DNA of 64,000 bases from a virus (taxonomy: Duplodnaviria; Heunggongvirae; Uroviricota; Caudoviricetes). Made by a program: the position numbers and the translations under genes. Position 1 is the first letter of the stretch. Each line of letters begins with the position of its first letter. Location: the IMG/VR virus record IMGVR_UViG_2541047680_000004. One strand, 5' to 3'. Under the pieces are notes generated by a model. The model made no database searches. It had not been told where the DNA came from and worked only from the letters and a program-made list of their open reading frames with translations. Below, one piece after another: positions 12,638 through 45,984 of the stretch.

Positions 12638-12683
12638 CCTGCTTCCGTATATATTTAATAAGTTACTTATTATTTATATACAG
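12638..12683. repeat. copy 1 of a 43-bp AT-rich repeat (second copy 45937..45984)
   Basis: cctgcttccgtatatatttaataagttacttattatttatata(c)ag, near-identical in both copies, each about 110 bp upstream of an operon start. Confidence 0.7.
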
Positions 12684-12795
12684 AAACAGGCTCCTAATGG
12701 ATACCAAGAACAACATAATTTGACTCCAACTCCAGATGCTATGTCATTGACAGATTTATCAAGGGAGATCATGTTAGAATTAGTGTTTTAGCCTC

Positions 12796-13869
12796 GTGGA
12801 TATTGTCACCATGCGCATGAATAGACTTCCAGGATATGGCCTTCCCGAACTGGCTTTTTGGCCTCAGCCTAAATATGAACGGAATAAATGGTCGATGTTC
12901 TGTCTGAAACTCCGTAATGATGGAACCCTTGCTTGGTATCGGCGATATGTTGATCGTGGTATGCCAAACCACGCTGTTGATGACGACTACGATAACTATC
13001 CTGAAGCAAGAAAAGCGGCATTAGAGCTGAATAAAAACGTGAGCTTTGACATTGAAAAACTTCCTCTATCTATGTTTCAAAAGAAGTCATTGCGTTTGAA
13101 AGTTGACAAAGCACTCAAAGCCAAATCACGTCTCATGGATGAAGAGTATATAATGCTCAACGAAGCAATTAAGGCACACGCCAACGATCCGCGAGTGACA
13201 TTAAATGAGTTAATAATTAACCCAGATTACGAAACTTTGCGTCAACCCCTTTTTGACGTGCTAAGCGAGATGCCTTACTTACATTTTGTTTTTCTTCCCA
13301 AATTCCAAGTTTCACTTCAACTCGTTGCTCCTAACACTTGGGAATGTTCATATAACAACAAAGCTAAGACAGCGAAGATCTGCTACCAAGAACGCATAGC
13401 CAGAGGTTTTGGTTTATCAGGTGCTGCACATTGGGGAAAAACAAAAGCGACTATTCGCTCAATGCTTCTGCCGCGTGCTAACCGGTTACTGCAACTCGCC
13501 AGCGTAAAAAGAATGCTGGATGAAGCTCTCAGGAATGGGCAAAAGGTACTGGTTGTTGGCAACTTTGTTTTCTGGTTTGAGGACAAAAATCAGGTAGGTT
13601 GGAGTGTTAAAGTTGCTAGCGAAAGCGAAACCACCTCAAGAGGCAATACGCTCTGGAAAGAAGGAACTATCATTTCAAAAAATCACGGTCGAATTGTCGT
13701 GCTGCCGTATACAAAAGAAAACGGTAAACATGTAAAAGGTTATACCAAGAATGCCCCTAACGACGGCAATGCAATTCCTAGACATAAGGATGAGTATGTT
13801 GAGTTGCCCTTTGAAATTTTGGATGGTGACTTGATGTTCAGTCTGTTCGGTGAGCTTAACTACGAATAG
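12796..13869 (+). CDS. hypothetical protein (plus-strand orphan)
   Basis: 357-aa ORF with bidirectional hairpin terminator at 13,880-13,920. Confidence 0.45.
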   Translation: MDIVTMRMNRLPGYGLPELAFWPQPKYERNKWSMFCLKLRNDGTLAWYRRYVDRGMPNHAVDDDYDNYPEARKAALELNKNVSFDIEKLPLSMFQKKSLRLKVDKALKAKSRLMDEEYIMLNEAIKAHANDPRVTLNELIINPDYETLRQPLFDVLSEMPYLHFVFLPKFQVSLQLVAPNTWECSYNNKAKTAKICYQERIARGFGLSGAAHWGKTKATIRSMLLPRANRLLQLASVKRMLDEALRNGQKVLVVGNFVFWFEDKNQVGWSVKVASESETTSRGNTLWKEGTIISKNHGRIVVLPYTKENGKHVKGYTKNAPNDGNAIPRHKDEYVELPFEILDGDLMFSLFGELNYE

Positions 13870-13929
13870 CTTTCATAGAACGAAATATTTCTAAGGCTGT
13901 CCAATGCAGACCAGCCTTAGAGATTTATA

Positions 13930-14289
13930 TCAACCTTTCTTCATTAACTCGCGTTTAATTTCATCGGTACGCATCGTGACATCGGCAGCAGTGATCGCCT
14001 CGTTCAGCTTCACGATGTCCTCGATTTCCTGCGGTGTCTTCTCCGCAAGATGGAAAATAGCAGCACGAATCACATCAGAGCGGGTGAATTTCTCGAAGCG
14101 AGGGATGAACTTCATCATCTCCAGCAGTTCGAAGTATTCGTCTTCCAGTGACATTGTGCGGCTTTTAATTTTCTCTTTGCCACGAGTCGGGCGTCCCTGT
14201 GGTCTGACTGGTTGGCGCAAAGGAGTTGTGTTCTTAGCCGGTGCATCAGGCTCTTTGCGCTTTGCTAGGTCACCCATTTTCATGGACAT
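13930..14289 (-). CDS. putative ribbon-helix-helix centromere-binding protein (ParG-like)
   Basis: Small protein translationally coupled to parA; predicted beta-strand/helix/helix segment SRTMSLEDEYFELLEMM...RSDVIRAAIFHLAEK. Confidence 0.4.
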   Translation of the reverse strand: MSMKMGDLAKRKEPDAPAKNTTPLRQPVRPQGRPTRGKEKIKSRTMSLEDEYFELLEMMKFIPRFEKFTRSDVIRAAIFHLAEKTPQEIEDIVKLNEAITAADVTMRTDEIKRELMKKG

Positions 14290-14957
14290 TATTCTTCTTC
14301 CTCCAGACTCAACAGATAATCTACAAATTCTTCAAACTCGGCTTCCGCCTTTTTGTCGCGCTCGCTACCGGTCATTTCAAAGATAGAACGACCAGACTCT
14401 TCCGCATCATCATAGACGTTGCGGTTATATAGATTGACTGGCGCAGACTCGATGCCAAACGTCTCAACAATCTCTTTAGCCGCCAGAATGCGAGACACTT
14501 GTGATGGCAAAGCCGGGCACTGGTTCATGACCGCGCGGACCTTCACTTTATCGTTTACATTACGAACATTGTCGATAATAGGATCGATGTCACGCAGAGA
14601 TTTCAAATCACGACGCTTAGGACGAAGCGGGATAATGATAACGTCGGCCATCAGCATCGCTTGTCGCTGAATTTCGGAGTCAAAGCCACCAGCATCTACC
14701 ACTACATACTCAGCTCTACCCTGAAGCGATTTTAGGTGCTTAATGATGTCATCCTGAACGTATGCAAAAGGAATCAGCTCAAGGTCTTCGTTCTGTCGAC
14801 GGTCTTCACACCAGCTCGTTGTCGTGCGCTGAATATCTATATCGGTGATATAAACCTTCTTCTTCTTTTTGACTTTCAGGCAAACGGCAATTTGCTGGGC
14901 TACGGTGGATTTGCCTGGCCCGCCCTTTGTGCCGCCAACCACAAAGATCTTGGTCAT
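14289..14957 (-). CDS. parA: ParA-family partition ATPase (short, type Ib-like)
   Basis: Deviant Walker A GGTKGGPGKST, Walker B-like VVVDAGG; 222 aa. Confidence 0.75.
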   Translation of the reverse strand: MTKIFVVGGTKGGPGKSTVAQQIAVCLKVKKKKKVYITDIDIQRTTTSWCEDRRQNEDLELIPFAYVQDDIIKHLKSLQGRAEYVVVDAGGFDSEIQRQAMLMADVIIIPLRPKRRDLKSLRDIDPIIDNVRNVNDKVKVRAVMNQCPALPSQVSRILAAKEIVETFGIESAPVNLYNRNVYDDAEESGRSIFEMTGSERDKKAEAEFEEFVDYLLSLEEEE

Positions 14958-14992
14958 TGGAGAGTTCCCTTTGCGTATATAATTATCGTCTG

Positions 14993-15005
14993 AAACAACT
15001 TGTTT
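14993..15005. promoter_or_regulatory. palindromic operator-like site AAACA-N3-TGTTT upstream of parA
   Basis: aaacaacttgttt 36 bp upstream of parA start. Confidence 0.5.
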
Positions 15006-15105
15006 TCTTATATGTGATATAGCCTAAATGCCTACGGCTGTGGTGTAAAGGTTTAATGATAGGTACATAGGTGGGCTTAATAACAAAAAACCCGCCGTAG
15101 CGGGT

Positions 15106-15879
15106 TTATTGATTCATAGATCGTTTACTCAGAATGTTCACTATATGAGTACAAGCACCTGGGGTGAGATTGATTTTATTAGTCCCCCACTCTTCACGTC
15201 TTCGCATCTGGCCTCCGTCAGACTTACCGATATCCCACGGAATAAAACCACTTACGCCACAGGCATCCTCACCCAATTCCTCTATAAAATTTTCGTTCTT
15301 CGTATCGTAAATTTCGACCAGTCCATGTTTGCGCATACTCACAGCCCAAAGAGTTGCGCCTTTTATCGTCTGTAACGTATCGCAAACCAAGTACTGATAC
15401 TTATCTACGAGATAAAGGTAAGCAAAACTTGCGATGCCTAATCCCATATAATCAGCATGAGTAAAAACCCCTCTAATCTGCTTGGCGCTGACTTTTACTC
15501 CAGATTTATCCTTGATTGGAAACTCGCAGTAGGCCACGCGGAAGACTGTTTGGACTGGCTGCCCCACATGCAACTTGTAGGATTCAATTTCTGCTCCTAT
15601 CTCAAGAGGTGTGTAACCAGCACGTTTGAGTCGCTTAACTTCCTGCTCTTGGTAATCAGGATCACATGACTCAAGACACTCGCCAACAATACAGCGTTCA
15701 TAGGCCGAATCAACAAGCTCGTATTCGGTAAATCGAATTAGATCGAAACCTCGGGAGATAAAATAGAACTCACCGAGAGCGATAATTCTCGTCGCTCTCG
15801 GCATTTCAGACAAGACCTTGCTGTAGTCTTCTATTTCAGGGATTAATCTGTTCGCCTGACCAATTAGAGATGGTGCCAT
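15106..15879 (-). CDS. hypothetical protein
   Basis: 257-aa ORF followed by bidirectional terminator (cccgccgtagcggg). Confidence 0.4.
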   Translation of the reverse strand: MAPSLIGQANRLIPEIEDYSKVLSEMPRATRIIALGEFYFISRGFDLIRFTEYELVDSAYERCIVGECLESCDPDYQEQEVKRLKRAGYTPLEIGAEIESYKLHVGQPVQTVFRVAYCEFPIKDKSGVKVSAKQIRGVFTHADYMGLGIASFAYLYLVDKYQYLVCDTLQTIKGATLWAVSMRKHGLVEIYDTKNENFIEELGEDACGVSGFIPWDIGKSDGGQMRRREEWGTNKINLTPGACTHIVNILSKRSMNQ

Positions 15880-16283
15880 GAAGTATTCTGTGCCGTTGAT
15901 GGTTCCATATCATCGATTTTACAGAATTTCTTCATAAAAGACTCTACAACTTGTTTGATTCGTGAAGAAATATCACGATCTAAACACTTCAAGTCAGGAT
16001 ATTGTTCAGCAACATCTAAAACAAAAGAGGTTCGTTTACCGTTAGCGACAACCTCGGCCAACGGTTTAACCAGTGACGTAGAATTAGAGACCTTTTCGGC
16101 ACGCGCCACATCGCTCTTAAAAGTGACGATGAAGTGCTGGCGGTTAGCTGATTCACGGCACAACATACGTCGCACTTCTACTGCGTCTTCACTGTTGTGA
16201 ATACGCATAGGAAAGCTGTCGATAACCGCAGTATTGGTGCGGATCGTCTGCATAGAACGCGTATTGTCATGATAATTTAGCAT
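15864..16283 (-). CDS. hypothetical protein
   Basis: 139-aa ORF. Confidence 0.4.
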   Translation of the reverse strand: MLNYHDNTRSMQTIRTNTAVIDSFPMRIHNSEDAVEVRRMLCRESANRQHFIVTFKSDVARAEKVSNSTSLVKPLAEVVANGKRTSFVLDVAEQYPDLKCLDRDISSRIKQVVESFMKKFCKIDDMEPSTAQNTSWHHL

Positions 16284-16492
16284 ATATCCACCTTAGCCGT
16301 TAACACAAGTGTCATTGCGGCACCCCTCTCGGGGTTGAAGGCTACGAGAATGCGTAGCCTGTATGTGCCCACTTACGTGGATGCCTAATAAATCTACATC
16401 AAATTACTAAATGATTCAACATGAGCTTGAGTGAACAGGCGTGTATATGAGTGAAGATGCCATCTTTAGGATAAAAGGTAAACTGAGATCAA

Positions 16493-16717
16493 TCATCGAC
16501 TCAGTTCAGGTGCCCCCCACTCACACAGCCTTTCACCTATCGTATTGTGGATAAGCAACTGTCGCTCCGTTTCCTCAGTCATAAAATCCTCTCTACTCAC
16601 ATAGATAGGATTTGCAGCATCGCAGAATAGCACGCCTGGAGCCTGCGTCTTAATCACGCACCCATTTATCAAACAGCTCGCGATGAACACCAGAGGCATC
16701 TTTTTGCCGCACTTCAT
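16493..16717 (-). CDS. o-spanin lipoprotein (Rz1-like), starting inside Rz in another frame
   Basis: MKCGKKMPLVFIAS-C lipobox; ORF begins within the Rz-like gene and extends past its stop. Confidence 0.45.
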   Translation of the reverse strand: MKCGKKMPLVFIASCLINGCVIKTQAPGVLFCDAANPIYVSREDFMTEETERQLLIHNTIGERLCEWGAPELSR

Positions 16718-16901
16718 TAACCGTTTCATTTTTGACATCCACTGTGCTTTGAAGTCGTTTTCTGTCTTCCTGTTTTGCCTTCTCTTCCATTGCTCGTCGC
16801 GCCGCATTCCCGCCCATCGTGTAAGCGCCGACCAGAACGAAAAGAACGGCAGCCAGCGTAATCAAAGCAACTTTTAGCTTTGTCATCAGGCTGCCTAGCA
16901 T
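16650..16901 (-). CDS. i-spanin (Rz-like)
   Basis: N-terminal TM helix then charged coiled-coil region; adjacent to endolysin. Confidence 0.55.
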   Translation of the reverse strand: MLGSLMTKLKVALITLAAVLFVLVGAYTMGGNAARRAMEEKAKQEDRKRLQSTVDVKNETVNEVRQKDASGVHRELFDKWVRD

Positions 16902-16902
16902 A

Positions 16903-18244: not shown

Positions 18245-18254
18245 CGTTTACTCA

Positions 18255-23567: not shown

Positions 23568-26500
23568 TTACAGAAGGCCAATTCTTACTCGTAGGACGTT
23601 GTTATCGTCATAAACGTCAATCCGCTGACCATTTATGACCAGTCGCCCATTACCCCCGCTATTACCGTTGATCTCAAGCGTTCCATTTTTGCCGAACCGC
23701 CATCCAGATCTACCGCTAACAAAATTGGTAGATTGCAGATCGCCTACTTTTGCATTGGTGATTGTGCCATCCTTGATATACGCACCATTCATATAGGCGA
23801 TACTGTTTTCGATAACAAATGGCGTGGTGATCTTCCCGTTAACAGAGTTGACCAAACCAAACCTGTCAGCCTGCACCAAAAACTGAGAAAGGCCAGTGGT
23901 GTCGATACCAAGCGCAATACCAGCAACATACTTCTGCCCTCCGCTCGTTGAAGTTTCCATTTTCAACGTCCACGCGGTTGACACTTTTTTGTTGGTATCA
24001 GCAATAGCTGTTGCCTGCTGTTGAATTGTCGCGGTATTTCCATCCACCTCTGCTTTCAGAGTATCGATTCGCCCACTCAGAGCATTATCTGCCTGCGTTC
24101 TCGCTGTCGTTTCAGTTGTTACCGCCGCGGAAATGTTGGCTGCCGTTTGAGACTCTAAGTTTGTGATTTGAGTCGCCAATGCAGCATCTTGCTCTGTACG
24201 CGTTTTCGTTTCGGTTGCTACAGCCGCTTTAATATCCTCTTTGTATTGAGAGGTCAGCTTGGTGATCTGAGACGACAACGCCGAGTCAGCATCAGTTCGA
24301 GCCTGCGTTTCAACTGCAACGGCCGCACTAATATCTTTCGCTGTCTGTGCTTTTAAACTTGAAACCTCTTTTGTTAAAGCGGTATCACCATCAGCACGAG
24401 CCGTTGTTTCTCTGGCAAGAGATGCCTCGAGATCATTAGCTTTTGCTGTAAGAGACGAAATCTGAGTGGACAATGCACTATCGGCATCAGTCCTTGCCTT
24501 TGTCTCTACAGCAACCGCTGCGGCAATATCAGTTCCGGTTTGTGCTCGCAGGCTGTTAATTTCTCGTGAGAGCGCCTGGTCAGCACTTGCTCTGGCCTCC
24601 TGCTCCTGAGTGATGGCAGCGGATATATCACCGTCAACCTTTGACTGAAGCTGGTTTATTAGTTTGGCTAACGCAGAGTCCCCGCTTGCTCGGGCCTCCT
24701 GCTCACTACGTATTGCAGCAGAAATATCATCATCAACCTTTGCCTGAAGTTGGGTGATCTGGCTTGCCAGAGCCGAATCTTCCGTTGCTCGGGCTTCTTG
24801 CTCTTCCTTAATAGCTGCGACGATATCGTTGCTTACTTTCGACTCAAGCTGAGTGATCTGTGTCGTCAGAGCTTCATCGGCAGATGTGCGAGCCTCCTGC
24901 TCTGTACTAATCGCCGCGCTGATATCTCCTTCAAACTTAGATTGCAGCTGAGTGACACGCTTTGCCAACGCTTCATCGCCATCGGCACGAGCGGTGGACT
25001 CTTCCAGAATACTGGCCTTAATGTCTTCGCCAATTTCTACGCGAATTTCCTCAACCTTCGTGGCCATTGCAGACATATCATCAGCAAAGGTTTTCTGTGT
25101 TGTTGCGATCTTCGCGTTATTGACCATCTGCTTGTGCTGGTCTTCATCTTGACGAAGAGCCAGGTCAATATTTGTTTTGGCTAACGCCTCAATGTTCGTA
25201 GTCAGTTCTGCACTGGCACGATCGACCTCTGCAACCGTCTTTTTCATTTCTTCAACGGCAGCGGAGCTTTCCTCTACCGTTGACTGCAACACTTCCAGTT
25301 GTTTAGCGTTTGCAGCATCGCCTTCAACACGAGCCTCGCTTTCCTTAGCAATAAGAGCCGCCGCTTCATCTCTTGCAGCCTTTATTGCCTCGACTGTATT
25401 AGCGAGAGCTTTATCGTGTTCAGATACGGTGTTTTCGATTTCAACAATTGCAGCATCAGTGGCATCAATTTTTTCAAACGCTTCATTGACCTTGTCGATC
25501 GTTGCCGAAACCTCACCTTTAAGCTCGGTTTGTGCGTTCTCCAAAGCATCGCTACGCTCGTTGAATTTTATTTCAAAACCCGCGAGGTTATCGCTGAACT
25601 GCTTATCTAATTCAGCTATATCTTCCTTAACGTCGTTTACCGACCCCTCCAAAGATTCGACGCTCTGGTTGATATGCTCATTTAACTCGTCAACTGCTTC
25701 TTGAGAGGCTTTGCTGTTGATGTCCTCAAGCAGAGCCTGACCAAGCTCGGAAGATGTAATTTTGCCAGCCAGGAACGACAGTACATCGCGAGTTGTCGCC
25801 TCTGTACCCAAGTTTGAGTTCGGAGGGCTTAACATACCTCGCTTGTTCGATGCTCGAACCCAGTAATACCACGTTTCGCTATCCCCAAGACCAGCATGTG
25901 TAAAGGTGGTGCTTGCAGACTCTGCGATCAGTTTCGCCGTATCCAGATTGTTGGTCTGGGATGCGTAAACATTAATGTGATCAAGGTCTACCGAATCTGG
26001 ATTAACCCAATTCAGTATCACATTACGATAGTCTCCAACGGCCGTTAATGACGTTGGGGCATCCGGCGGTGTCATTGTGCCCAACACCTGATAAACGGTA
26101 CTGATAATCTCTGTTTTTTTACCGTTGAATGAAACCGCATACAGTTGGAAGTCGTAGCGTCCATTCTCCGCGACATTAACGATTTCGTATTGCTCTTCGG
26201 TTACACGCGCCGATTGCCAGTTCGATACATTGTTTTCATCAGAACGTCGCCAACTGATCCAATACTCTGGAGATTTTCCTTCCCATGTTGCAGTCAGTTT
26301 TACTGACAGGTTGCCCGGGCTTGAGAGATAAGTCCCTTCAGTGATTTGCAGATTAGATGGCTTGGAGTAAGTTGGGTCCAATACCGTCGTATTCTGCGGG
26401 ATCAGCGTTGCACCATTGTCGATTGCCTCATATTTAGACGGATTGTTCTCAACAGCGGTGATGTCAAAGCTACCCGGCGTTTCCCCCTGCGCGATGTTAA

Positions 26501-28298
26501 CGATGCGAACGCGCATAGGTTCGAGATCTGGTTCTGTAATTGTCCAGACACCGTTCAAAACAGGCGTTTCCGCTGACGACAGGGCTTTTGAAAACGTAAC
26601 CTTTGTTATGTTTTCGCCAGTTTCAAGAACATCGCGTTCAACGATTTTGCCTTCCTGATTCAATATCCGAATAAAGCTGCCGCTTTTAGCTAACGACACA
26701 GGCGCATCGAGAGTGATGCTGTTTTTGGTAAACTCCACAATTCGACCGGAGTTACGTTTACCTGCACGATATTTGTTCTGAATCAGAACGGTTTCACCGG
26801 GCATCAGAAATGAGGCGTCTAAGCCGGCAGTAAATGTAATTACATCCGACTCCATTCTGGCGGTATACAAAAGCCACAAACCAACTCGGTGAGCCTGGCC
26901 TCGGCTTGTACATCCAAATGCTACGACTTCTGTTTTACGCTCACCATAACGGCGCATTGCGTCCTGATCTTCAACGTACTCGATGTTTTGCTTATAACCG
27001 TCCTCCTTGTTGTTGTAGGTTACGAGCGCAACGGATGGGCGATCTTTACGCGCAGAACCTTTATAGGTAAACAGTCCATCTTTGACGTTGGAGTTGGTAA
27101 ACATCATTACCGGATCTGATGGGCTATCCTGCATGATGTTAACCATGCCACCAGCCCAAAACACCATGCCGCGGAATGCACCGGCAATATCCTGAATTAA
27201 TCGGTATGCGTCTTGTCGACTGGTGATCTGCGTATTGATTGCAAAGCGTTTCTCTTTACCCCCAAAGCCATCATCGACCTCTTCGTCACAATATCGACCA
27301 ATCTGGTAGAGCTGGCCGAGGTCAATCATGGATTCCGACACAAATTGCCCAAGACCATACCGAGTATTGGTAAGCAAATCGTAGAGAATCCACGCAGGGT
27401 TTGAAGAAGACAACAGCTTAAAAGTACCGTCCCATACGCCGACATAAGTATTGGTGTATTCGTTGTAGTTTGACGGTACTCGGATTTTGATACCGCGCAC
27501 CAAATACGAACGGGAAGGCATTGTGCTACCAAACTGCTCTGAATTGACCTTCAAGCCAACAAGAGCAGAGTTAGGGTAGTTCATTGGCGTGTCGACAATC
27601 TCACCGATGGAATCAACCCATGTGTCGTTGTAGAGGTACTGGCTACTATTATCATCTGTAAGACGAATCACCCTAACCTTGTATGCACGACCAGGCTTAG
27701 GCAGTTTCAGCTCATAGCTACGGTAATACACGCCGGTTTTCTTTGCCGTTAGCGTGATATCAACGCTTTTCTCACCTTCTGCCACTACATCAGAAAATGT
27801 TGCGTCTGCGTTGGCGATCTGGAATTTGTACTTCACCGTAGTGCCATTTGTATCGCCAGAGCTTTTATCAACGCTACGTAAAGAGGGGAATTTCATGATG
27901 ACACGAACGCGATCAGCTTCATCGTTATCGATTGAAACCGTAACGTCGTGTGTTTTTTTAAGCTGAATATTTACGGACTTAGGCGTTTCGACAAAATCAA
28001 AACCAGCCATTGGCGTCTGATCTTGTGAGCCGTCACGAAAATCCCATGTAATACCGCTGAAGTTGGAAGAGCCATCTTCATTCAAGATCGGTAAATCGTC
28101 GATGAAGATCGACTTTGCGCCATTTACCAGGCCACCGATAACCCCCTCGCCAAGAAGGTCGAGGATGGCTGCCATAGCACGAGAATTGACAGTATCATCA
28201 GCTTCAACCGGGGTACGGCTGGAGCTTTTACTTTTCTTGCCACCAGCACCGGCAATAAGAAGCGGTAATTTTTTCTTCTTGAACTGTTCCATGTCCAA
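23568..28298 (-). CDS. central tail fiber / host specificity protein (lambda J-like) with expanded coiled-coil repeat insert
   Basis: 1576 aa; blocks matching lambda J (PNSALVGLKVNSEQFGS, FGCTSRGQAHRVGLWL, C-terminal VAGIALGID...FLV region); about 14 tandem 28-aa repeats. Confidence 0.85.
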   Translation of the reverse strand: MDMEQFKKKKLPLLIAGAGGKKSKSSSRTPVEADDTVNSRAMAAILDLLGEGVIGGLVNGAKSIFIDDLPILNEDGSSNFSGITWDFRDGSQDQTPMAGFDFVETPKSVNIQLKKTHDVTVSIDNDEADRVRVIMKFPSLRSVDKSSGDTNGTTVKYKFQIANADATFSDVVAEGEKSVDITLTAKKTGVYYRSYELKLPKPGRAYKVRVIRLTDDNSSQYLYNDTWVDSIGEIVDTPMNYPNSALVGLKVNSEQFGSTMPSRSYLVRGIKIRVPSNYNEYTNTYVGVWDGTFKLLSSSNPAWILYDLLTNTRYGLGQFVSESMIDLGQLYQIGRYCDEEVDDGFGGKEKRFAINTQITSRQDAYRLIQDIAGAFRGMVFWAGGMVNIMQDSPSDPVMMFTNSNVKDGLFTYKGSARKDRPSVALVTYNNKEDGYKQNIEYVEDQDAMRRYGERKTEVVAFGCTSRGQAHRVGLWLLYTARMESDVITFTAGLDASFLMPGETVLIQNKYRAGKRNSGRIVEFTKNSITLDAPVSLAKSGSFIRILNQEGKIVERDVLETGENITKVTFSKALSSAETPVLNGVWTITEPDLEPMRVRIVNIAQGETPGSFDITAVENNPSKYEAIDNGATLIPQNTTVLDPTYSKPSNLQITEGTYLSSPGNLSVKLTATWEGKSPEYWISWRRSDENNVSNWQSARVTEEQYEIVNVAENGRYDFQLYAVSFNGKKTEIISTVYQVLGTMTPPDAPTSLTAVGDYRNVILNWVNPDSVDLDHINVYASQTNNLDTAKLIAESASTTFTHAGLGDSETWYYWVRASNKRGMLSPPNSNLGTEATTRDVLSFLAGKITSSELGQALLEDINSKASQEAVDELNEHINQSVESLEGSVNDVKEDIAELDKQFSDNLAGFEIKFNERSDALENAQTELKGEVSATIDKVNEAFEKIDATDAAIVEIENTVSEHDKALANTVEAIKAARDEAAALIAKESEARVEGDAANAKQLEVLQSTVEESSAAVEEMKKTVAEVDRASAELTTNIEALAKTNIDLALRQDEDQHKQMVNNAKIATTQKTFADDMSAMATKVEEIRVEIGEDIKASILEESTARADGDEALAKRVTQLQSKFEGDISAAISTEQEARTSADEALTTQITQLESKVSNDIVAAIKEEQEARATEDSALASQITQLQAKVDDDISAAIRSEQEARASGDSALAKLINQLQSKVDGDISAAITQEQEARASADQALSREINSLRAQTGTDIAAAVAVETKARTDADSALSTQISSLTAKANDLEASLARETTARADGDTALTKEVSSLKAQTAKDISAAVAVETQARTDADSALSSQITKLTSQYKEDIKAAVATETKTRTEQDAALATQITNLESQTAANISAAVTTETTARTQADNALSGRIDTLKAEVDGNTATIQQQATAIADTNKKVSTAWTLKMETSTSGGQKYVAGIALGIDTTGLSQFLVQADRFGLVNSVNGKITTPFVIENSIAYMNGAYIKDGTITNAKVGDLQSTNFVSGRSGWRFGKNGTLEINGNSGGNGRLVINGQRIDVYDDNNVLRVRIGLL

Positions 28299-39526: not shown

Positions 39527-40447
39527 TTATTCCTGTGCAGCAGTGACTTCTACGGTCGCTGTCGCTTTGTGGCTACCATCTTGGGTAGTAACCTCGATTG
39601 TGGCAGTACCAGCCGCAACGCCAGTTACAACACCGGTTTCGCTATCCACCGTTGCAAACTCGGTATTTTTGGATTCCCAAGTAACGGTTTTATTTGTTGC
39701 TCCTGCCGGCTCGACATTTGCGGACAGCTGAACAGTTTTGTTTGCCTCAACGGTTGTGCTATTTGGGTCGATTTCGACGCCGGTAACAGCCACAACAGGC
39801 GCAGTTACTTCCACCGTTGCAGTTGCCTTTTTGCTGCCATCTTGGGAAACGATCTCAATCGTCGCAGTGCCAACTTCTACACCAGTAACGTTCCCGCTCT
39901 GGTCTACCGTTGCCTTATCTTCATTTTTGGAAGACCAGGTAACAGCCTTATTCGTCGCATTTGACGGCTGAACATTCGCTTTCAGACTGACTGATTTCCC
40001 TTTCTCAACAGACGTTGATTCTGGCGTTACCGTTACGGATTGAACGGCTACCGGATTTACGGTGACTTCCACTGAAGCGGAAAGCTGGGTTTCCTGATCA
40101 GTTGCAGTAATTTTTACTTTGCCTGGTGCTACGCCAGTTACTAATCCAGTGCCGTTAACGGTTGCAATTTGGTCATTTGCTGACTTCCAGGTGAATGAAC
40201 TGGCACTCTTACCCATACTAATACCTGCACTAAGTTGAACAGTTTTCCCAACCAAAACTGACGGTGAAGCCGGGGTTATGTTTACGGATTGGGAGAGGGG
40301 AACCGCCTGCAAACAAGCAGATAGCTGACTTTGTTGCCGCTCGGTTAAAGGTTCATCGGAGATAGAATTGGTAAATCCGGCACGGCACATATGCCCCGTA
40401 AAATCCGAAAATGCCTCTTCCGTAATCTTCATCTTTTGTTCTGGCAT
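39527..40447 (-). CDS. Ig-like (three Big_2 domains) protein, putative head decoration
   Basis: Three repeats of ..TV.P.S.TV..GKTVQLSA.V.P..ATNK.VTW.S.N...ATVD..G.VTGV..G.ATI.. directly downstream of major capsid gene. Confidence 0.6.
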   Translation of the reverse strand: MPEQKMKITEEAFSDFTGHMCRAGFTNSISDEPLTERQQSQLSACLQAVPLSQSVNITPASPSVLVGKTVQLSAGISMGKSASSFTWKSANDQIATVNGTGLVTGVAPGKVKITATDQETQLSASVEVTVNPVAVQSVTVTPESTSVEKGKSVSLKANVQPSNATNKAVTWSSKNEDKATVDQSGNVTGVEVGTATIEIVSQDGSKKATATVEVTAPVVAVTGVEIDPNSTTVEANKTVQLSANVEPAGATNKTVTWESKNTEFATVDSETGVVTGVAAGTATIEVTTQDGSHKATATVEVTAAQE

Positions 40448-40520
40448 TTCTCGCTCCTACAAAAAGGGTGGGCGTATAGCCCACCCTTTAACATAGATAA
40501 CTACTTATCTACTACACTGA

Positions 40521-41396
40521 TTAAATTTTTACATTGGTCAGTGCAGCGATAGCCTTATCATGCTTATTCGCCAGAGAGCAGTACCACTTCACACGGGTAC
40601 GTACTGCGTCTTTGTTCTGTACAGTACCAATGTTTTCAACAACGATACCTGCGTTATCGCCGCCATACAGACCAGTAACGCCGTTCTCTTCTGACAGATG
40701 CAGGCAGTAGATGCTTGCTTTGCCAGCATCGGTCGGGATGAAGTCGTTGATGATGAACGGAACGCCGTTATGACACAGCATCGGACGACCAAAGTTCTCC
40801 ATCATGATTTCAGACGGACCTACGTTTACTGTACGCAGCAGCGCACGATAAGCACGCAGGTGCTCTGAACGCATCATGATGCAGTCAGCACCAAGATCTT
40901 TCACCGCATCGACCAGTTCGTCGAACATAGAGAAAGTCATAGATGCACCGGCGATATCGATCTTCTGATCTGCGTGCATCAGGCGTGGAATGCCGTCAAA
41001 CGCCTTGTTGTTGGAGCTGGAGTCACCCAAAATCAGGTTGCGACGGAACGCACGAGCCAGACCTTTAACTTTCTGACGAACCTGAATAGCCAACTGGTTG
41101 TTGGTGTCGGCCATAGTGGTCGCCAGGAATTTATCAACGTCTACGTCACCAGCCAGAATACGCAGTTTCGCAACGCATTCTTCGAAGGTTGCTGCACCTT
41201 CAGGGATGGTGTCGTTAACGTCGATGAAGGTAGCTTCACTCAGCGTTTTTTCACGGTTGTACAGATATGCCTTTGAATTAATTTTCATAAAAGGCAGGAT
41301 GGCAAACAGGTCATCGCGATCGATGATAGTTTCGATCACACCCTGTTCAAGTTCGTTGTTAGACAGCTTTTCAGCTTCTTCACGCAGTAATGGCAT
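40521..41396 (-). CDS. major capsid protein
   Basis: 291-aa ORF between scaffold and decoration genes; strong terminator hairpin after stop. Confidence 0.7.
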   Translation of the reverse strand: MPLLREEAEKLSNNELEQGVIETIIDRDDLFAILPFMKINSKAYLYNREKTLSEATFIDVNDTIPEGAATFEECVAKLRILAGDVDVDKFLATTMADTNNQLAIQVRQKVKGLARAFRRNLILGDSSSNNKAFDGIPRLMHADQKIDIAGASMTFSMFDELVDAVKDLGADCIMMRSEHLRAYRALLRTVNVGPSEIMMENFGRPMLCHNGVPFIINDFIPTDAGKASIYCLHLSEENGVTGLYGGDNAGIVVENIGTVQNKDAVRTRVKWYCSLANKHDKAIAALTNVKI

Positions 41397-42309: not shown

Positions 42310-42330
42310 AAAAATTCCTTTTGTTACTTA

Positions 42331-43905
42331 TCACTCGTTCTCTTGAGTAGATGAGTCCCCATTCCCTCGGGGTTGATCTTGCCCTCTTTCTTGGGCTGCA
42401 CCACGATCATAAGTAAGTGCTGACTTATTTTCAAGGGTATTTAGATCATTTTTTGGAGGAAAATTCAAGAGATCTTTATCAAATTCCTTTTTCATCGCCT
42501 CAGTAATGTTCGGGAAAATCTTCTCAATAAGCATTTCCATCTGGTGACGACGTACAGAGTCCGGTGCCTGAAGTAATGACAGTTTCTCGGCAACAGAAAA
42601 TTCATCAGTAAGGCCACGAATATCGAAACTTTCTGGATACGCAATTAAAGAGTGGTCTTCGTCCAGATCTACCCCCATCCATTTCGCAACCAGTAGCATG
42701 ATTTGGCGTTCAGCCCTTTCCAGACGCTCTGCTTTTGTGACAAGCAAGCTATTTACACGCTGGAAGTCATACATTTTTGCGGCACCAGATGAGTTATCGA
42801 TTCCCTGTGCGTTGTCCTGCTTCGTTCGCTCACCAGCTACACCAACTGAATGGTAGATTTCGTTAATCACCGTCTTAATCGTAGTGATGATCATCTGAGC
42901 TTGTTTCGGGTCTGGTGACAGATAAAACGGCTGGTTTCCACCTTCAGAATCGTAGGTGAAGACTCGCTTTGTGCCCATTTCAAGCACTTTAGTGTGGTTT
43001 TCATCACCAGGTAAAAGCGACTGTACTGGTATAGCCAACTGGCTAAATGTCTGATCCTGAATAATGGCATCAAGGTTTGACAGATAGTTTGCAACCGCAC
43101 GATCAAGATAAGCGATATCATCGATCAACGATGGGCTGAAATACGGTGATTCACTTTCTCCAATACAATCAACAGGAAACACAGGAACTACGCTGAGATT
43201 ATGCTCACCGCTATCCTCTAAAATAACTTTTGCCTGACGGCGACCTGCTCCACCAGCGCCCTTCTTCACTTCCTCACGGAACAGATACCACTCGTTTTGT
43301 GTCCACAGACGATAACGTTGGTATTCCTGACCTGTAGAAGTAAAAGGATCTGCGTCATCGCGAGCGACTTCCACAATTAACGCCCATAACATATTCCCGT
43401 CGTCGTCCCATGCCACATCCAGCATTTGCTGAGGTGAAATCCAGTAGGCGTAGGCGCGAGCATCTTTCTTTTTCTCGTCAGCTACTGACTCAACATCACC
43501 ACTCATCGTGCTATCGACAACAACCCATATGCGACCGTAAATAGACGACTGCAAATCAATAGCGGCCATAAATGAGTCAATAGAGGCATTCTGGCGAGTC
43601 GCACGTTTCCAGAAATTGCGGATCTGCTCTGGTGCCTCTTCGATATTTCTATGAATGTCTTCTTTAAAGAGATATTTGTTGATGAGGTTTACCACCTCAC
43701 GAGTGTGGTTGAAGCGATAAGCACGTTCAACTCGCTCCTTAAACTCCTGATCTCCCTCTTTAAAGTAACGAAAGATATTGTCTGTAAACCAACCACGCCC
43801 GCCAGCGTAAGTGCTGGCGAGGAAGTCCCAATGTTCTTTTTTCTTTTCGTATTCCGGGTGGCGTCGCGCCACCAGATCCTTAATTTGTTTGTCGTTCAAT
43901 TCCAT
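42331..43905 (-). CDS. portal protein
   Basis: 524 aa directly downstream of terminase large subunit. Confidence 0.65.
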   Translation of the reverse strand: MELNDKQIKDLVARRHPEYEKKKEHWDFLASTYAGGRGWFTDNIFRYFKEGDQEFKERVERAYRFNHTREVVNLINKYLFKEDIHRNIEEAPEQIRNFWKRATRQNASIDSFMAAIDLQSSIYGRIWVVVDSTMSGDVESVADEKKKDARAYAYWISPQQMLDVAWDDDGNMLWALIVEVARDDADPFTSTGQEYQRYRLWTQNEWYLFREEVKKGAGGAGRRQAKVILEDSGEHNLSVVPVFPVDCIGESESPYFSPSLIDDIAYLDRAVANYLSNLDAIIQDQTFSQLAIPVQSLLPGDENHTKVLEMGTKRVFTYDSEGGNQPFYLSPDPKQAQMIITTIKTVINEIYHSVGVAGERTKQDNAQGIDNSSGAAKMYDFQRVNSLLVTKAERLERAERQIMLLVAKWMGVDLDEDHSLIAYPESFDIRGLTDEFSVAEKLSLLQAPDSVRRHQMEMLIEKIFPNITEAMKKEFDKDLLNFPPKNDLNTLENKSALTYDRGAAQERGQDQPRGNGDSSTQENE

Positions 43906-43931
43906 TTGAATAACCTTAGATAATTACTTAC

Positions 43932-45188
43932 CTATCGAGAACCACCAAGAATAACACGGTTTTTGACTGGATACCTACGATGTACTGGATAGCCCAATGC
44001 GTCTGCACTATGCTCAATGCCACCTGTCTTATCCATATCTCGTGTTCCAGGCTTGTAGATGACTTTTTCCAGTGAATCAATCAAATGCTTGCACTTCGGA
44101 TCGATATACAGCCGGATATCTCCAGATGCGGTCATCAGCATTCGGTTAACAGCATTAACACGATCCGCAATTGGCGGGTGCTTTTTCGAATAATCGACAC
44201 GTAAGAATCCCTTCTCTTTGAATATGTCGACGTCAGACTCCCCGCGAGCATGTTGGCGATAAGCACCTGCCGGATCTGGAAATATCGTTATCTGTGATTT
44301 CCAGCGCCAGAAGCGTCTCTCAAGCTCATCACAAACCTCTGCCGTGTTAGAGGAAAAGAGCACCAATTCATCAATTGCCCATAGCTCACCATTTGGCTGA
44401 GGTTGCAAAATTACGGAAGACATCGGGTCAATGTTGAAGTCCTGCCCTACCCATATAGGTAACCGAGGGTTGAACTGAAGCGGTTTTACATGCACGTTAC
44501 GATCGAACGGGTAGTAAACGCGCCCGGACATGTTCTCAAAGCTGGCCAGGTACTCCTGAGCGAACGATTTGGGGTCCATATCGTTCTTAGCAGCTTCAAT
44601 TTCCGCCGTAGGTACAAACGGAGAATCGGCAGTTACAAACTGCCAGCTCTTCCACTGTCCCTTTCTTTGCAGCTCTACGTTCTGGCCTATAGTCCACAGT
44701 TTGTGAAATTCCGAGAAGCCTTTTGGCGTACCAATGATCAGTGCACCGCCGCGTGTCGATGAAAGAGTAGGTCGTAACACCTTGTACCAAGTGTCAGCCT
44801 TCATATCCTGAAATTCATCAAGCACTACAAAATGCAACGCTACGCCGCGCAGAGTGTCAGGCTTATCAGCACCTTTGAGGGCGATCTCCGAACCGTTCTT
44901 CAACACGATTGTCATCGTGGTGTCGTTCTTTTTCCTAACCCACTTACGAGGCAGAACTTCCTGTAGATCGTCCCACAAAATCTGGCGAGCCATCTGGTAA
45001 GTAGGAGCGACATACCAGACCCTTTGCTTTTTTTCCTTTGCCGCCGCACGAATAATAGTGGAGATCGACAACCGGGATTTTCCCCAGCGTCGACCAGCAC
45101 AAACAACTTTAAATCGATGCGGAGACTGGAAGACTTTCATCTGTCCAGAATGCAGTTGCACAAGACTGAGCGAGGACGGGATTGCCAT
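43932..45188 (-). CDS. terminase large subunit
   Basis: N-terminal Walker A (CAGRRWGKSR), Walker B-like VVLDEF, C-terminal nuclease-type acidic residues. Confidence 0.8.
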   Translation of the reverse strand: MAIPSSLSLVQLHSGQMKVFQSPHRFKVVCAGRRWGKSRLSISTIIRAAAKEKKQRVWYVAPTYQMARQILWDDLQEVLPRKWVRKKNDTTMTIVLKNGSEIALKGADKPDTLRGVALHFVVLDEFQDMKADTWYKVLRPTLSSTRGGALIIGTPKGFSEFHKLWTIGQNVELQRKGQWKSWQFVTADSPFVPTAEIEAAKNDMDPKSFAQEYLASFENMSGRVYYPFDRNVHVKPLQFNPRLPIWVGQDFNIDPMSSVILQPQPNGELWAIDELVLFSSNTAEVCDELERRFWRWKSQITIFPDPAGAYRQHARGESDVDIFKEKGFLRVDYSKKHPPIADRVNAVNRMLMTASGDIRLYIDPKCKHLIDSLEKVIYKPGTRDMDKTGGIEHSADALGYPVHRRYPVKNRVILGGSR

Positions 45189-45820
45189 TATTCGTCCTCC
45201 CCTTCACTTCCATCATCTGTCGCATCAAATTCGCTTAGAGCTTCTTCTTCCAACGTCTCAAGCAATTCGTCATCGATGATTTCAGGCTCGTCGTCTTCCT
45301 GACGTAATTTCGCCACCTGGGAAGGCGTAAGCTCACCAAATACCAGATTCGGAATTTCTTCCTCGTCATTTTCCGCATGATCCATGCCCAATGCTTTGGA
45401 CGAAACTTCAAAGCATTTTGCAAGGGTATTACTGGCTCTCTGTAAGCTCTTGAGAGAATCCTCAATCGCCCCTAAAGGCTTACCCTCACGTTTGGCCGTA
45501 GTGACTTCGACCATCACCATCTGCCCCAACGCATACGCCCAGCCGTCATAACGTGTACGACGTTCTTCTATCTTTTCCGCACGGGCTTTAGCGCGAAGCT
45601 CTGCGTCAGATTTAAGAGACTCACGAACCATCTTCCCAACAGAGTCCGCGCCTTTCTCTAATCCTCGCTTTTTGAAATGTCTGGAGAGTGTTTCACGACG
45701 AATGCCGTACTCTTCCTCCAGCTTTGAGAGTGTATATTCGCCTGACGTCCATTTGGCTTCAGCTTCGGCCCACTCCGCTGGTGTCAGGCGAGTTTTTACC
45801 TCGTCTTTTTCGACCGTCAT
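45188..45820 (-). CDS. terminase small subunit
   Basis: 210 aa with N-terminal HTH-like segment (TLSKLEEEYGIRRETLSRHF) and acidic C-terminus; stop overlaps TerL start. Confidence 0.6.
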   Translation of the reverse strand: MTVEKDEVKTRLTPAEWAEAEAKWTSGEYTLSKLEEEYGIRRETLSRHFKKRGLEKGADSVGKMVRESLKSDAELRAKARAEKIEERRTRYDGWAYALGQMVMVEVTTAKREGKPLGAIEDSLKSLQRASNTLAKCFEVSSKALGMDHAENDEEEIPNLVFGELTPSQVAKLRQEDDEPEIIDDELLETLEEEALSEFDATDDGSEGEDE

Positions 45821-45860
45821 AGATCCCTCTAAAACACACAGAGCGCGTCCATGCGCTCTA

Positions 45861-45898
45861 AAACAACTTGTTTACTGCATCTGCTAACCAACTTGTTT
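45861..45898. promoter_or_regulatory. two tandem AAACA-N3-TGTTT operator-like palindromes upstream of terminase operon
   Basis: aaacaacttgttt (45861-45873) and aaccaacttgttt (45886-45898), 40-80 bp upstream of TerS start. Confidence 0.5.
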
Positions 45899-45936
45899 TC
45901 TGGGGTGTTTAATTAGGTCTGGCATGTCTTACGAAG

Positions 45937-45984
45937 CCTGCTTCCGTATATATTTAATAAGTTACTTATTATTTATATATACAG
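45937..45984. repeat. copy 2 of the 43-bp AT-rich repeat
   Basis: Near-identical to 12638..12683. Confidence 0.7.

What the first reader, a model, noticed from the sequence alone, without database searches (positions are those of the whole stretch)
12638..45984. Near-identical 43-bp AT-rich repeat placed about 110 bp upstream of both the replication and the packaging operons
cctgcttccgtatatatttaataagttacttattatttatata(c)ag occurs at 12,638-12,683 and 45,937-45,984, same orientation and same distance from the first start codon of the helicase-side operon (12,530) and of the terminase operon (45,820). Identical long promoter-region repeats 33 kb apart suggest a shared strong promoter or activator site, or a recombination hot spot that could invert or delete the intervening structural region.
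Basis: seen in the sequence. Interest (0 to 1): 0.4.

Follow-up and report, generated by a model that had tools for sequence, protein, structure and literature searches.

The report
Three-copy palindrome punctuating phage-plasmid operons
The repeat is real, but it is one half-plus-centre of a 55-bp AT-rich palindrome that every SSU5/pHCM2-type phage-plasmid carries three times, at the borders between its big gene blocks, where it most likely stops and controls transcription and also serves as a joint at which gene modules are swapped.

Summary
Observation confirmed and enlarged. The 43-nt exact repeat (12638-12680 / 45937-45979; 0 expected by chance) is part of a 53-55-bp GC-clamped, AT-rich palindrome (CCTGCTTCYG-TATATA-[AT centre, TAAGT-N-ACTTA]-TATATA-CRGAAGCAGG), itself the core of a ~100-bp dyad with outer TTCTGG/CCAGAA boxes. 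The window is an SSU5-like phage-plasmid. Relatives (about 800 plasmids; 257 of 5426 complete E. coli genomes) carry the element at three syntenic intergenic sites only: before terS (T), before the loader-helicase-primase operon (H), and after a Dam-like methylase gene (M, outside this window). In the window both copies lie exactly 117 nt from the start codon. In published RNA-seq of a lysogen, all three downstream blocks are silent, and RNA falls about 9-fold across the H copy. No sigma-70 consensus promoter is present. The H copy is an exact mosaic junction in several lineages, but the deletion product expected from recombination between the copies was found in 0 of about 500 replicons. Arm sequence co-varies between H and T within distant lineages. 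Best reading (about 0.4): a transcriptional punctuation and control cassette, i.e. hairpin terminator/insulator plus the regulated start region of the next lytic block, which doubles as a recombination joint. Rivals: pure protein operator, multiple lytic origins, cos/pac, centromere. The function is untested, and I found no paper describing the element.

The parts
12638..12690 (.).
   Evidence: The DNA hairpin has z = -4.5 to -6.0.
12614..12711 (.). Extended H element with outer inverted boxes (GTTCTGG at 12614-12620; CCAAGAAC at 12704-12711)
   Evidence: Unrelated cargo flanks in other genomes still carry a TTCTGG box 20-30 nt from the dyad.
45937..45991 (.).
45916..46013 (.). Extended T element with outer inverted boxes (GGTCTGG at 45916-45922; CTCCCAGACC at 46004-46013), each 14 nt from the core
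   Evidence: The outer helix shows compensatory changes: 4 pairs / 11 cells, reached by 0 of 500 shuffles.
12657..12671 (.). Perfect central 15-bp palindrome AATAAGT-T-ACTTATT of the H copy
45956..45970 (.). Perfect central 15-bp palindrome of the T copy
11781..12521 (-). First gene downstream of the H dyad (246 aa, phrog_2500). All-alpha; weak fold resemblance to the T4 gp59 helicase-assembly protein.
9134..11737 (-). DnaB-like helicase (10397-11737) and primase (9134-10387) of the same operon
12566..12594 (-). Conserved promoter-like pair downstream of the H dyad: TTCCAA (12589-12594), a 17-nt spacer, then TATCAT (12566-12571). This is inferred, and it falls below the scan's threshold.
   Evidence: Alignment (CACTTCCAAAAA ... 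CCAGTCGCTATGAT is conserved across lineages). The scan was negative.
45188..45820 (-). Small-terminase-position gene (210 aa, phrog_867 'DNA binding domain'), first gene downstream of the T dyad
43932..45188 (-). Large terminase subunit
45839..45860 (-). Terminator-like GC hairpin plus T-run, between the T dyad and the terS ribosome-binding site
   Evidence: Compensatory stem changes are seen in relatives.
45861..45901 (-). Two AGAAAACAAnTTGTT operator-like boxes in the terS leader
   Evidence: 10 boxes in the window, 0.04 expected
46016..46282 (-). 88-aa winged-helix DNA-binding protein encoded immediately upstream of the T dyad. Candidate trans factor.
   Evidence: MarR/MepR-type wHTH, Foldseek E about 3e-4, TM 0.68-0.76
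12796..14386 (+). Variable cargo slot abutting the H dyad (352-aa phrog_22329 gene starting at ATG 12811, plus a 160-aa ORF). It is replaced by unrelated genes in close relatives.
13930..14957 (-). Type Ib ParA (14289-14957) and a 119-aa partner (13930-14289). Their operon is the transcription unit that ends at the H dyad in relatives without divergent cargo.

Best explanation
The repeat is the core of a family-specific 'punctuation and control' cassette of SSU5-like phage-plasmids. Each genome has three copies. Each sits in the gap between the end of one long co-directional gene block and the first gene of the next: morphogenesis (terS), loader-helicase-primase, and the block after the Dam-like methylase. 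Proposed mechanism: (1) When transcribed from upstream, the GC-clamped AT-rich palindrome, extended by the outer boxes, folds into a long hairpin. That hairpin terminates read-through, or is cut by RNase III, and so insulates the lytic blocks from upstream transcription such as the par operon, which is expressed in the lysogen. (2) The sequence-conserved, gene-proximal arm (TATATA-CGGAAGCAGG) and the outer box belong to the regulated start region of the next block. That region lacks a -35, is silent in the lysogen, and is probably recognised by an element-encoded DNA-binding protein; the winged-helix protein encoded just upstream of the T copy is the nearest candidate. (3) Because the cassette is an island of near-identity inside otherwise divergent DNA, homologous recombination between co-resident or co-infecting elements resolves there. 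This makes it a module joint and keeps the copies within one genome alike. What is shown: the anatomy, the three-site synteny, the conservation, the RNA drop at H, the silence of the downstream genes in a lysogen, and the mosaic junction at H. What is inferred: termination by the hairpin itself, promoter activity, and the identity of any binding protein.
For: The element occurs at three syntenic intergenic sites only. All 99 IMG/VR palindromes map to sites M, T and H of PhiR41_1. There are exactly three copies in PhiR41_1 and in a C. freundii plasmid. The element is present in 798 plasmids at 2396 places. The distance to the start codon is identical (117 nt) at both window copies and is 109-119 nt elsewhere. 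Strong hairpin potential is seen. A U-tract directly follows the stem in the gene direction and is conserved at H (GCAGG-TCTTTT) and mostly at M. In Morganella and Xenorhabdus, the same arm motif at H forms a canonical GC hairpin plus T-run. In the lysogen transcriptome, ParA/CYRAN_29/CYRAN_30 read 50-89 and CYRAN_31 reads 6.2 across an intergenic region whose only hairpin is the dyad. terS, CYRAN_31 and CYRAN_80 are all at background. Mismatches on the gene-orientation strand are mostly G.U rather than A.C at T and H (about 49:8 cells), as expected if pairing matters in the RNA. The outer helix at T shows compensatory changes. The gene-proximal arm is the best-conserved part at T and H, and its lineage-specific version is shared by H and T of the same genome: Morganella has TATGGGAGCACGGCTTAGA at both, and the Raoultella and Xenorhabdus types behave likewise. 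Identity breakpoints fall exactly at the H dyad. A published analogue exists in which composite terminator/promoter repeats act as recombination joints (PeSLs, PMC2839356 and PMC4122927).
Against: There is no direct 5'- or 3'-end mapping. The U-tract is weak at T, where a separate canonical terminator lies 70 nt downstream. The arms are nearly invariant in sequence, with no compensatory pairs at H and M. That fits sequence-specific protein recognition better than a purely structural RNA. At M the G.U/A.C bias and the arm-conservation asymmetry are neutral or reversed. The G.U excess could partly reflect strand-biased C-to-T mutation. No sigma-70 consensus promoter was found. Symmetry of the outer boxes, even where no divergent gene exists, is not required by a terminator-promoter model.
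Confidence: 0.4

Rival explanations
1. Pure protein operator or activator site. In this reading the dyad is the binding site of an element-encoded dimeric or tetrameric DNA-binding protein (repressor in the lysogen or activator in lytic growth; e.g. the 88-aa winged-helix protein). The protein co-ordinately controls three lytic blocks, and the RNA hairpin is irrelevant. The RNA drop at H would then be a roadblock effect.
For: Arms are conserved in sequence rather than by covariation. The three-tier symmetry with conserved outer boxes persists even in unrelated cargo flanks. Lineage-specific arm sequence is shared by H and T of one genome, as expected for co-evolution with a trans factor. A winged-helix gene adjoins the T copy in all lineages examined. 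Downstream genes are silent in the lysogen. No -35 element is present, which is typical of activator-dependent phage promoters.
Against: The spacing between arms varies from about 23 nt to 75-105 nt in distant relatives, which is awkward for a single oligomer. The G.U over A.C bias on the transcribed strand at T and H, and the conserved U-tract at H and M, are unexplained. The winged-helix gene is itself silent in the lysogen (7.8), so it cannot be the lysogenic repressor. No binding data exist.
Confidence: 0.25
2. Multiple lytic replication origins. In this reading the AT-rich centre is an unwinding element clamped by inverted initiator-binding boxes, as in the palindromic oriS/oriL of herpes simplex virus (three copies, in divergent promoter regions), SPP1 oriL/oriR, or T4 promoter-plus-DUE origins.
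For: The architecture fits: an AT-only centre of variable length between conserved inverted boxes. One copy lies directly upstream of the loader-helicase-primase operon. The Cyrano authors' annotation lists T4-like recombination/replication genes (UvsW, UvsY, gp32-like, RecA/UvsX-like, SbcCD-like). Cruciform potential is present. The three copies are spread around the circle at 32, 29.5 and 46 kb apart. The herpesvirus, SPP1 and T4 parallels come from my own knowledge.
Confidence: 0.13
3. Packaging signal: the T copy is the cos or pac site, i.e. a terminase recognition and cleavage site.
For: The T copy lies 117 nt upstream of the small-terminase-position gene. The linear SSU5 record begins and ends inside the T palindrome, 8 nt from its centre. 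Winged-helix and TerS-like DNA-binding proteins flank it.
Against: The element has three copies per genome, two of them far from the terminase genes. A cos site repeated at 30-46 kb intervals would give sub-genomic chromosomes. The SSU5 junction shows no duplication or loss relative to circular relatives. The Cyrano record was simply re-oriented to match SSU5. Draft assemblies of unrelated hosts also break contigs at these dyads, so the SSU5 'end' is probably an assembly break at a repeat or palindrome.
Confidence: 0.06
4. Dispersed centromere-like sites for the type Ib ParA/119-aa system, doubling as silencers of adjacent lytic operons, by analogy with the four dispersed SopB-binding inverted repeats of phage-plasmid N15.
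For: The H copy lies immediately downstream of the parA/partner operon when no cargo is inserted: in the Raoultella-type element the dyad starts about 10 nt after the stop codon. The par genes are expressed in the lysogen while the dyad-flanked lytic genes are silent. The N15 precedent comes from my own knowledge.
Against: Type Ib centromeres are normally short iterated repeats upstream of parA. The Cyrano authors annotate the 119-aa partner as RelE/ParE-like. pMT1 keeps a perfect T dyad without this par system, although pMT1 is evolutionarily young.
Confidence: 0.05
5. Target of a site-specific recombinase, or a cassette-integration site like attC, responsible for the variable slot at H or for rearrangements between copies.
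For: The mosaic junction lies exactly at the H dyad, with many unrelated cargo genes next to it. The size (53-57 bp imperfect palindrome) recalls attC. A tyrosine integrase is encoded elsewhere in the element.
Against: No attC core motifs (RYYYAAC / GTTRRRY) are present. T and M show little mosaicism. No deletion product between the direct copies was found in about 500 replicons. The other border of the slot is an ordinary gene end. Homologous recombination at a conserved island explains the junctions.
Confidence: 0.05

Closest known systems
PeSL motifs of T4-type phages (composite terminator/early-promoter repeats; Arbiol et al. 2010, PMC2839356; Comeau et al. 2014, PMC4122927)
   Same: Both are repeated intergenic stem-loop-containing regulatory cassettes placed at gene-module borders. 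Both serve as points of homologous exchange between otherwise unrelated sequences (here).
   Different: PeSLs are numerous, short, and carry a recognisable sigma-70 early promoter. This element has only three copies. It is a 53-55-bp AT-rich palindrome inside a ~100-bp three-tier dyad, it has no consensus promoter, and it heads lytic blocks that are silent in the lysogen.
Herpes simplex virus oriS/oriL palindromes; SPP1 oriL/oriR (own knowledge)
   Same: All have an AT-rich centre flanked by inverted sequence-specific boxes, two or three dispersed copies per genome, a location in regulatory regions next to replication genes, and a tendency to disturb cloning or assembly.
   Different: No initiator protein and no replication evidence are known here. 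The U-tracts and the fixed position relative to stop and start codons point to transcription.
Dispersed centromere inverted repeats of phage-plasmid N15, which also influence late-gene expression (own knowledge)
   Same: Both occur in a phage-plasmid, as a few palindromic sites scattered at regulatory positions including the late region, with one next to the par operon.
   Different: N15 sites are about 16-bp SopB boxes of a type Ia system. Here the par system is type Ib and the dyad is about 100 bp. No binding has been shown.
Phage P1 dispersed C1 operators and Lpa-dependent late promoters (own knowledge)
   Same: Both involve a phage-plasmid that controls scattered lytic operons, including a DnaB-like helicase operon, through one repeated cis-element. 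P1's late promoters lack a -35 and carry a palindrome.
   Different: P1 operators are 17-bp asymmetric sites present in many copies, and the Lpa palindrome is 9 bp at position -22. There is no sequence similarity.
Lambda-type cos site
   Same: Both are partly symmetric sites just upstream of the small terminase gene. One database record (SSU5) is linearised inside the site.
   Different: This element has three copies per genome, and there is no evidence of physical ends. See the rival explanation.

Membership tests
Rho-independent terminator | Short GC-rich stem-loop immediately followed by a U-tract | tested here: inconclusive
   The consensus scan does not call either dyad, because the stem is about 25 bp and mostly A-T. 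By eye, the base of the stem is a 10-bp GC clamp followed by TCTTTT at H and CTGTTTTG/CTTTTT at M, but only CTTCG/CTTAAT at T.
Rho-independent terminator | Transcripts end there | tested here: inconclusive
   Gene-level RNA-seq of the LF82 lysogen goes from 54.6 to 6.2 across the H dyad. No 3'-end mapping exists. T and M are uninformative because both sides are silent.
PeSL-like composite terminator/promoter cassette | Repeated at module borders and used as a recombination joint | tested here: met
   Three syntenic border sites. Identity breakpoints fall exactly at the H dyad.
PeSL-like composite terminator/promoter cassette | Recognisable sigma-70 early promoter next to the stem-loop | tested here: not met
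   0 promoter-like sites in 12450-12850 and 45780-46080. Only sub-threshold candidates exist (TTCCAA-17-TATCAT at H; TAATTA at T).
   Downstream genes are at background in the lysogen. Activity during lytic growth was not testable.
LexA (SOS) box | CTG-N10-CAG 16-bp palindrome | tested here: not met
   The arms contain CTGTATAT half-sites, but the two halves are about 35 nt apart and many variants read CCGTATAT. This is read directly from the sequence.
T4-type late promoter | TATAAATA at -10, recurring before late genes; a gp55-like sigma factor | tested here: inconclusive
   TATAAATA lies in the distal half of both window dyads in gene orientation. There are only 4 matches in 64 kb against 2.1 expected, and 16 of 100 shuffles reach 4. 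A gp55 homologue was not searched for.
cos/pac packaging site | Unique site next to the terminase genes at which virion DNA ends are made | tested here: not met
   There are three copies per genome. Physical ends are not testable here. The SSU5 record end inside the dyad is matched by contig breaks in draft assemblies.
Replication origin (palindromic, initiator boxes plus AT-rich unwinding element) | AT-rich core between inverted conserved boxes | tested here: met
Replication origin (palindromic, initiator boxes plus AT-rich unwinding element) | Initiator binding and initiation of DNA synthesis | not testable with these tools
   Needs marker-frequency analysis, 2D gels or binding assays.
Integron attC / site-specific recombination site | Conserved core motifs (RYYYAAC ... 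GTTRRRY) and recombination products between copies | tested here: not met
   The motifs are absent, as read from the sequence. The chimeric T/H junction is found in 0 of 250 plasmids and 0 of 257 genomes.
Plasmid centromere (parS-like) | Adjacent to the par operon and bound by its centromere-binding protein | tested here: inconclusive
   The H dyad directly follows the par operon in the Raoultella-type element. In the window it is separated from the operon by cargo. Binding is not testable. pMT1 keeps the T dyad without this par system.
Any Rfam RNA family | Covariance-model match at gathering score | tested here: not met
   Only three tRNAs matched in the window, and nothing at the dyads.

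The most novel reading that the evidence does not exclude
The three dyads are bidirectional lytic replication origins of a T4-like replication/recombination machinery carried by a plasmid-prophage. In this reading, herpesvirus-oriS-like palindromes (an AT-rich unwinding core clamped by inverted initiator boxes) are embedded in the control regions of the lytic blocks. Firing of replication and release of transcription would then be coupled at the same sites, and these sites would also define the units of modular exchange.
Probability: 0.12. Interest if true: 0.65.

Novelty: new variant of a known kind. Interest (0 to 1): 0.42.

Why it matters
SSU5/pHCM2/pMT1-type phage-plasmids are common in clinical Enterobacteriaceae: about 800 PLSDB plasmids, 4.7% of complete E. 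coli genomes, and Y. pestis pMT1. They also carry resistance genes, yet their lysis-lysogeny and gene-expression circuitry is essentially unstudied. A single conserved cis-element sits at the head of the packaging, replication and third gene blocks. That gives an immediate experimental handle for finding the regulator, for mapping transcription units or origins, and for explaining where accessory cargo is exchanged. It also gives a practical warning, because the element breaks assemblies and has been used as an arbitrary genome 'end'.

Tried and rejected
- **Chance repeat:** rejected.
- **Independent mobile element (MITE-like):** the short palindrome-only hits in non-SSU5-looking plasmids (H69-H71) turned out to be the H or M copies of SSU5-derived segments.
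- **More than three copies per genome:** the '5-6 places' per record did not reflect extra palindromes. The C. freundii plasmid has exactly three.
- **Sigma-70 promoter:** scans were negative.
- **LexA box:** half-sites only, at the wrong spacing.
- **T4 late promoter:** TATAAATA is not enriched.
- **Rfam:** nothing at the dyads.
- **Clean RNA covariation in the arms:** not found. The arms are sequence-conserved, and position 9 shows all four states. Only the outer helix at T shows compensatory changes.
- **Deletion between copies:** not found.
- **Defence-system identity for the cargo genes:** no PADLOC hit.
- **Sequence-level PDB matches for the two flanking proteins:** none. The fold search gave a clear winged helix for the 88-aa protein but only weak hits for the 246-aa protein.
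- **Literature:** searches for SSU5 with cohesive ends, PhageTerm, palindrome, inverted repeat or promoter, and for pHCM2 TSS, found no description of the element. The SSU5 genome paper could not be retrieved.

Full report
**1. What the window is.**
The window is about 60% of an SSU5/pHCM2-type phage-plasmid of E. coli. Megablast of both repeat regions gives 95-99.6% identity to 'Escherichia phage CMS-2020a', PhiR41_1 and Cyrano (pLF82). Identity is about 77-80% to Klebsiella phage-plasmids and about 86% to Salmonella phage SSU5. Genes run mostly on the minus strand.
- Downstream of copy 2 lie a TerS-position DNA-binding protein (45188-45820) and TerL (43932-45188).
- Downstream of copy 1 lie a 246-aa protein (11781-12521), a DnaB-like helicase and a primase.

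**2. The observation.**
The 43-mer occurs exactly twice, at 12638-12680 and 45937-45979, with none expected by chance. With the correct ATG at 12521, both copies are 117 nt from their start codons.

Each copy is really an imperfect palindrome of 53/55 bp: CCTGCTTCCG-TATATA-TTTAATAAGT-T-ACTTATTATT-TATATA(TA)-CAGA(AA/TG)CAGG. The central 15 bp are a perfect palindrome. Folded as single strands, the copies give z-scores of -4.3 to -6.0 against shuffles.

Alignment with relatives shows a further inverted pair, TCTGG(G) ... (C)CCAGA(C/A)C, about 14-20 nt outside each arm. This pair is present at every site, so the symmetric unit is about 100 bp.

**3. Copy number and distribution.**
- The complete relative PhiR41_1 has three copies, at record positions 13435, 45582 and 75115. 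They lie after a Dam-like methylase gene (site M), before terS (site T), and before the 246-aa/helicase/primase operon (site H).
- A C. freundii plasmid also has exactly three copies.
- A scan of IMG/VR with one arm returned at least 120 loci. 99 of them contain the palindrome, and all 99 map to M, T or H.
- In PLSDB a 301-bp probe hits 798 plasmids at 2396 places, in Klebsiella, Escherichia, Enterobacter, Yersinia, Salmonella and Citrobacter.
- 257 of 5426 complete E. coli genomes carry the element, always on a plasmid.
- Y. pestis pMT1 keeps only T, because the H and M regions are deleted there.
- Site M lies outside the present window.

**4. Distant relatives.**
I used homologues of the 246-aa and TerS-like proteins to reach more distant elements.
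- In a Raoultella-type element the arms read CCTGCTCCCCAT ... ATGGGAAGCAGG at H, and T shares the same lineage-specific features.
- In Morganella psychrotolerans the H and T sites of one contig share the 19-mer TATGGGAGCACGGCTTAGA.
- Xenorhabdus elements carry TATATTATGGGAGCA(C/A)GG at both sites. In X. hominickii the two inverted arms are about 75 nt apart.
- A 44%-identity relative has ACCTGCTTTCTATATA ... TATTAGAAAGCAGGT.

So the AT-rich core between inverted arms is universal and its length is variable. The gene-proximal 'TATATA + GG(R)AGCA(N)GG' arm is the most persistent part. Arm sequence changes together at different sites of the same genome, either by concerted evolution or by co-evolution with a trans factor. 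In Morganella and Xenorhabdus, the arm at H is one half of a compact GC hairpin followed by a T-run, which is a textbook intrinsic terminator.

**5. Structure versus sequence.**
Within the E. coli/Klebsiella/Salmonella/Citrobacter clade the arms hardly vary in sequence. Position 9 shows all four states (C-G, U-G, U-A, C-A). No compensatory pairs are seen at H or M.

At T the extended stem, including the outer boxes, is 97% paired. It has 4 pairs (11 cells) with changes on both sides, which 0 of 500 shuffles reached.

On the strand transcribed in the gene direction, one-sided changes are mostly G.U rather than A.C at T and H (about 49:8 cells). At M the bias is neutral or reversed. A U-tract directly after the stem is conserved at H, is mostly present at M, and is weak at T. 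These data fit an RNA hairpin whose arms are additionally constrained in sequence. They do not settle the question.

**6. Transcription evidence.**
No sigma-70 consensus promoter occurs near either copy, and Rfam finds nothing there.

The only transcriptome available is published RNA-seq of lysogenic E. coli LF82, whose plasmid pLF82 is 'Cyrano' (PMC9928086, supplementary file 2).
- At H, ParA reads 49.8, CYRAN_29 reads 89.1 and CYRAN_30 reads 54.6. After the H dyad, CYRAN_31 reads 6.2, the helicase 21.1 and the primase 10.6.
- The genes on both sides of T (5-9.5 before the dyad, 7.1 after) and of M (6.0 before, 9.5 after) are at background.

The 193-nt Cyrano intergenic region at H contains no hairpin other than the dyad. 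Two conclusions follow. In the lysogen the three downstream blocks are off. Transcription from the par operon does not cross H.

At T a separate terminator-like hairpin, kept by compensatory changes, sits between the dyad and the terS ribosome-binding site. Two AGAAAACAAnTTGTT boxes accompany it.

**7. Recombination.**
Identity profiles against PhiR41_1 change exactly at the H dyad. Three loci go from about 99% to about 80%. The window and two other loci go from unrelated (about 35%) to 97-100%.

The variable side is a cargo slot between the ParA-partner gene and the dyad. It holds unrelated genes in different elements. Those unrelated flanks still carry a TTCTGG box.

In contrast, the junction expected from recombination between the T and H copies, which would delete the 33-kb structural region, is absent. 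It was found in none of 250 matching plasmids and none of 257 matching E. coli genomes.

**8. The SSU5 'end'.**
The linear SSU5 and Cyrano records start and stop inside the T palindrome. Cyrano is pLF82 re-oriented, so SSU5 is the only independent case. Its joined ends reproduce the circular sequence exactly. Draft assemblies of Xenorhabdus and Photobacterium also break contigs at these dyads. An assembly break at a repeated palindrome is therefore the simplest reading. A physical end cannot be excluded.

**9. Neighbouring proteins.**
The 88-aa protein encoded just upstream of T is a winged-helix DNA-binding protein. Its model has pLDDT 82, and Foldseek matches MarR/MepR-type domains at E about 3e-4 with TM 0.68-0.76. 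It is conserved upstream of T in distant lineages.

**10. Interpretation.**
I favour a transcriptional punctuation and control cassette (confidence about 0.4). It would be a hairpin that insulates or terminates, fused to the regulated start region of the next lytic block. Being a conserved island, it would also act as a joint for homologous exchange. The nearest described analogue is the PeSL terminator/promoter motif of T4-type phages.

The rivals are:
- A purely protein-bound operator or activator site (0.25). This is compatible with much of the same evidence and may well co-exist with the hairpin function.
- Multiple lytic origins of the herpes-oriS/SPP1 type (0.13).
- A cos/pac site (0.06).
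- Centromere-like sites (0.05).
- A site-specific recombination site (0.05).

No paper in the searchable library describes the element.

**11. Verdict.**
The element is an uncharacterised, family-specific variant of a known kind of phage regulatory repeat. Interest is moderate.

Noticed in passing
window 11758-11772, 14994-15008, 45862-45876, 45887-45901, 55000-55014, 55760-55774, 56667-56681, 57152-57166, 59919-59933, 59966-59980: Ten AGAAAACAAnTTGTT boxes (palindromic core AAACAA-N-TTGTTT) against 0.04 expected. Most lie about 10 nt downstream of GATAAT-like -10 hexamers and 20-45 nt before start codons (parA, helicase, terS leader, and several small genes at 55-60 kb). They look like the operator of a global regulator overlapping transcription starts.
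   Followed up: partly
window 45839-45860 (- strand): A terminator-like GC hairpin plus T-run lies immediately before the terS ribosome-binding site and is conserved with compensatory stem changes in relatives. This implies that late-operon expression needs antitermination or read-through control.
   Followed up: partly
window 12796-14386 (+ strand): A hypervariable cargo slot lies between the ParA-partner gene and the H dyad. Here it holds a 352-aa phrog_22329 protein plus a 160-aa ORF. Close relatives hold unrelated genes at the same place. There is no PADLOC or Pfam hit, so the function is unknown.
   Followed up: partly
window 46016-46282 (- strand): An 88-aa winged-helix (MarR-type fold) protein sits directly upstream of the T dyad. 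In the macrophage 6-h RNA-seq columns of LF82, its Cyrano orthologue rises more than its upstream neighbours (log2 about 6.5 against about 3.6), which hints at its own promoter.
   Followed up: partly
window 2759-3002 (- strand); 2269-2346 and 3269-3390: Three tandem tRNA genes are flanked on each side by a 20-nt, 95% complementary inverted-repeat hairpin (CACAGCGTTGAGCGGTCTGG / CACAACGTTGAGGCCACTAC types).
   Followed up: no
window 24579-24974: There are three or more 99-nt (33-codon) tandem units at 64-72% identity inside the 1576-aa ORF 23568-28298 (tail-fibre/host-specificity region).
   Followed up: no
window 53377-53410 and 53872-53905: A 34-nt direct repeat at 88% identity contains a GC hairpin (GAGCGCCCACTATGGGCGCTTT). 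These are probably twin terminators after two small plus-strand genes.
   Followed up: no
L140 (Xenorhabdus sp. PR6a contig start), L141 (contig end), L150 (Photobacterium ganghwense contig start); SSU5 record ends (L003/L004): Draft-assembly contigs and one 'complete' linear phage record begin or end inside these dyads. The element is therefore a recurrent assembly breakpoint and should not be taken as a genome terminus without end mapping.
   Followed up: partly
Cyrano record 40268-40822 (CYRAN_43; outside the window's dyads): In the published LF82 RNA-seq this small minus-strand 'hypothetical protein' is expressed about 700-fold above the prophage background, next to the integrase and putative repressor. 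It may be an abundant regulatory RNA rather than a protein gene.
   Followed up: no
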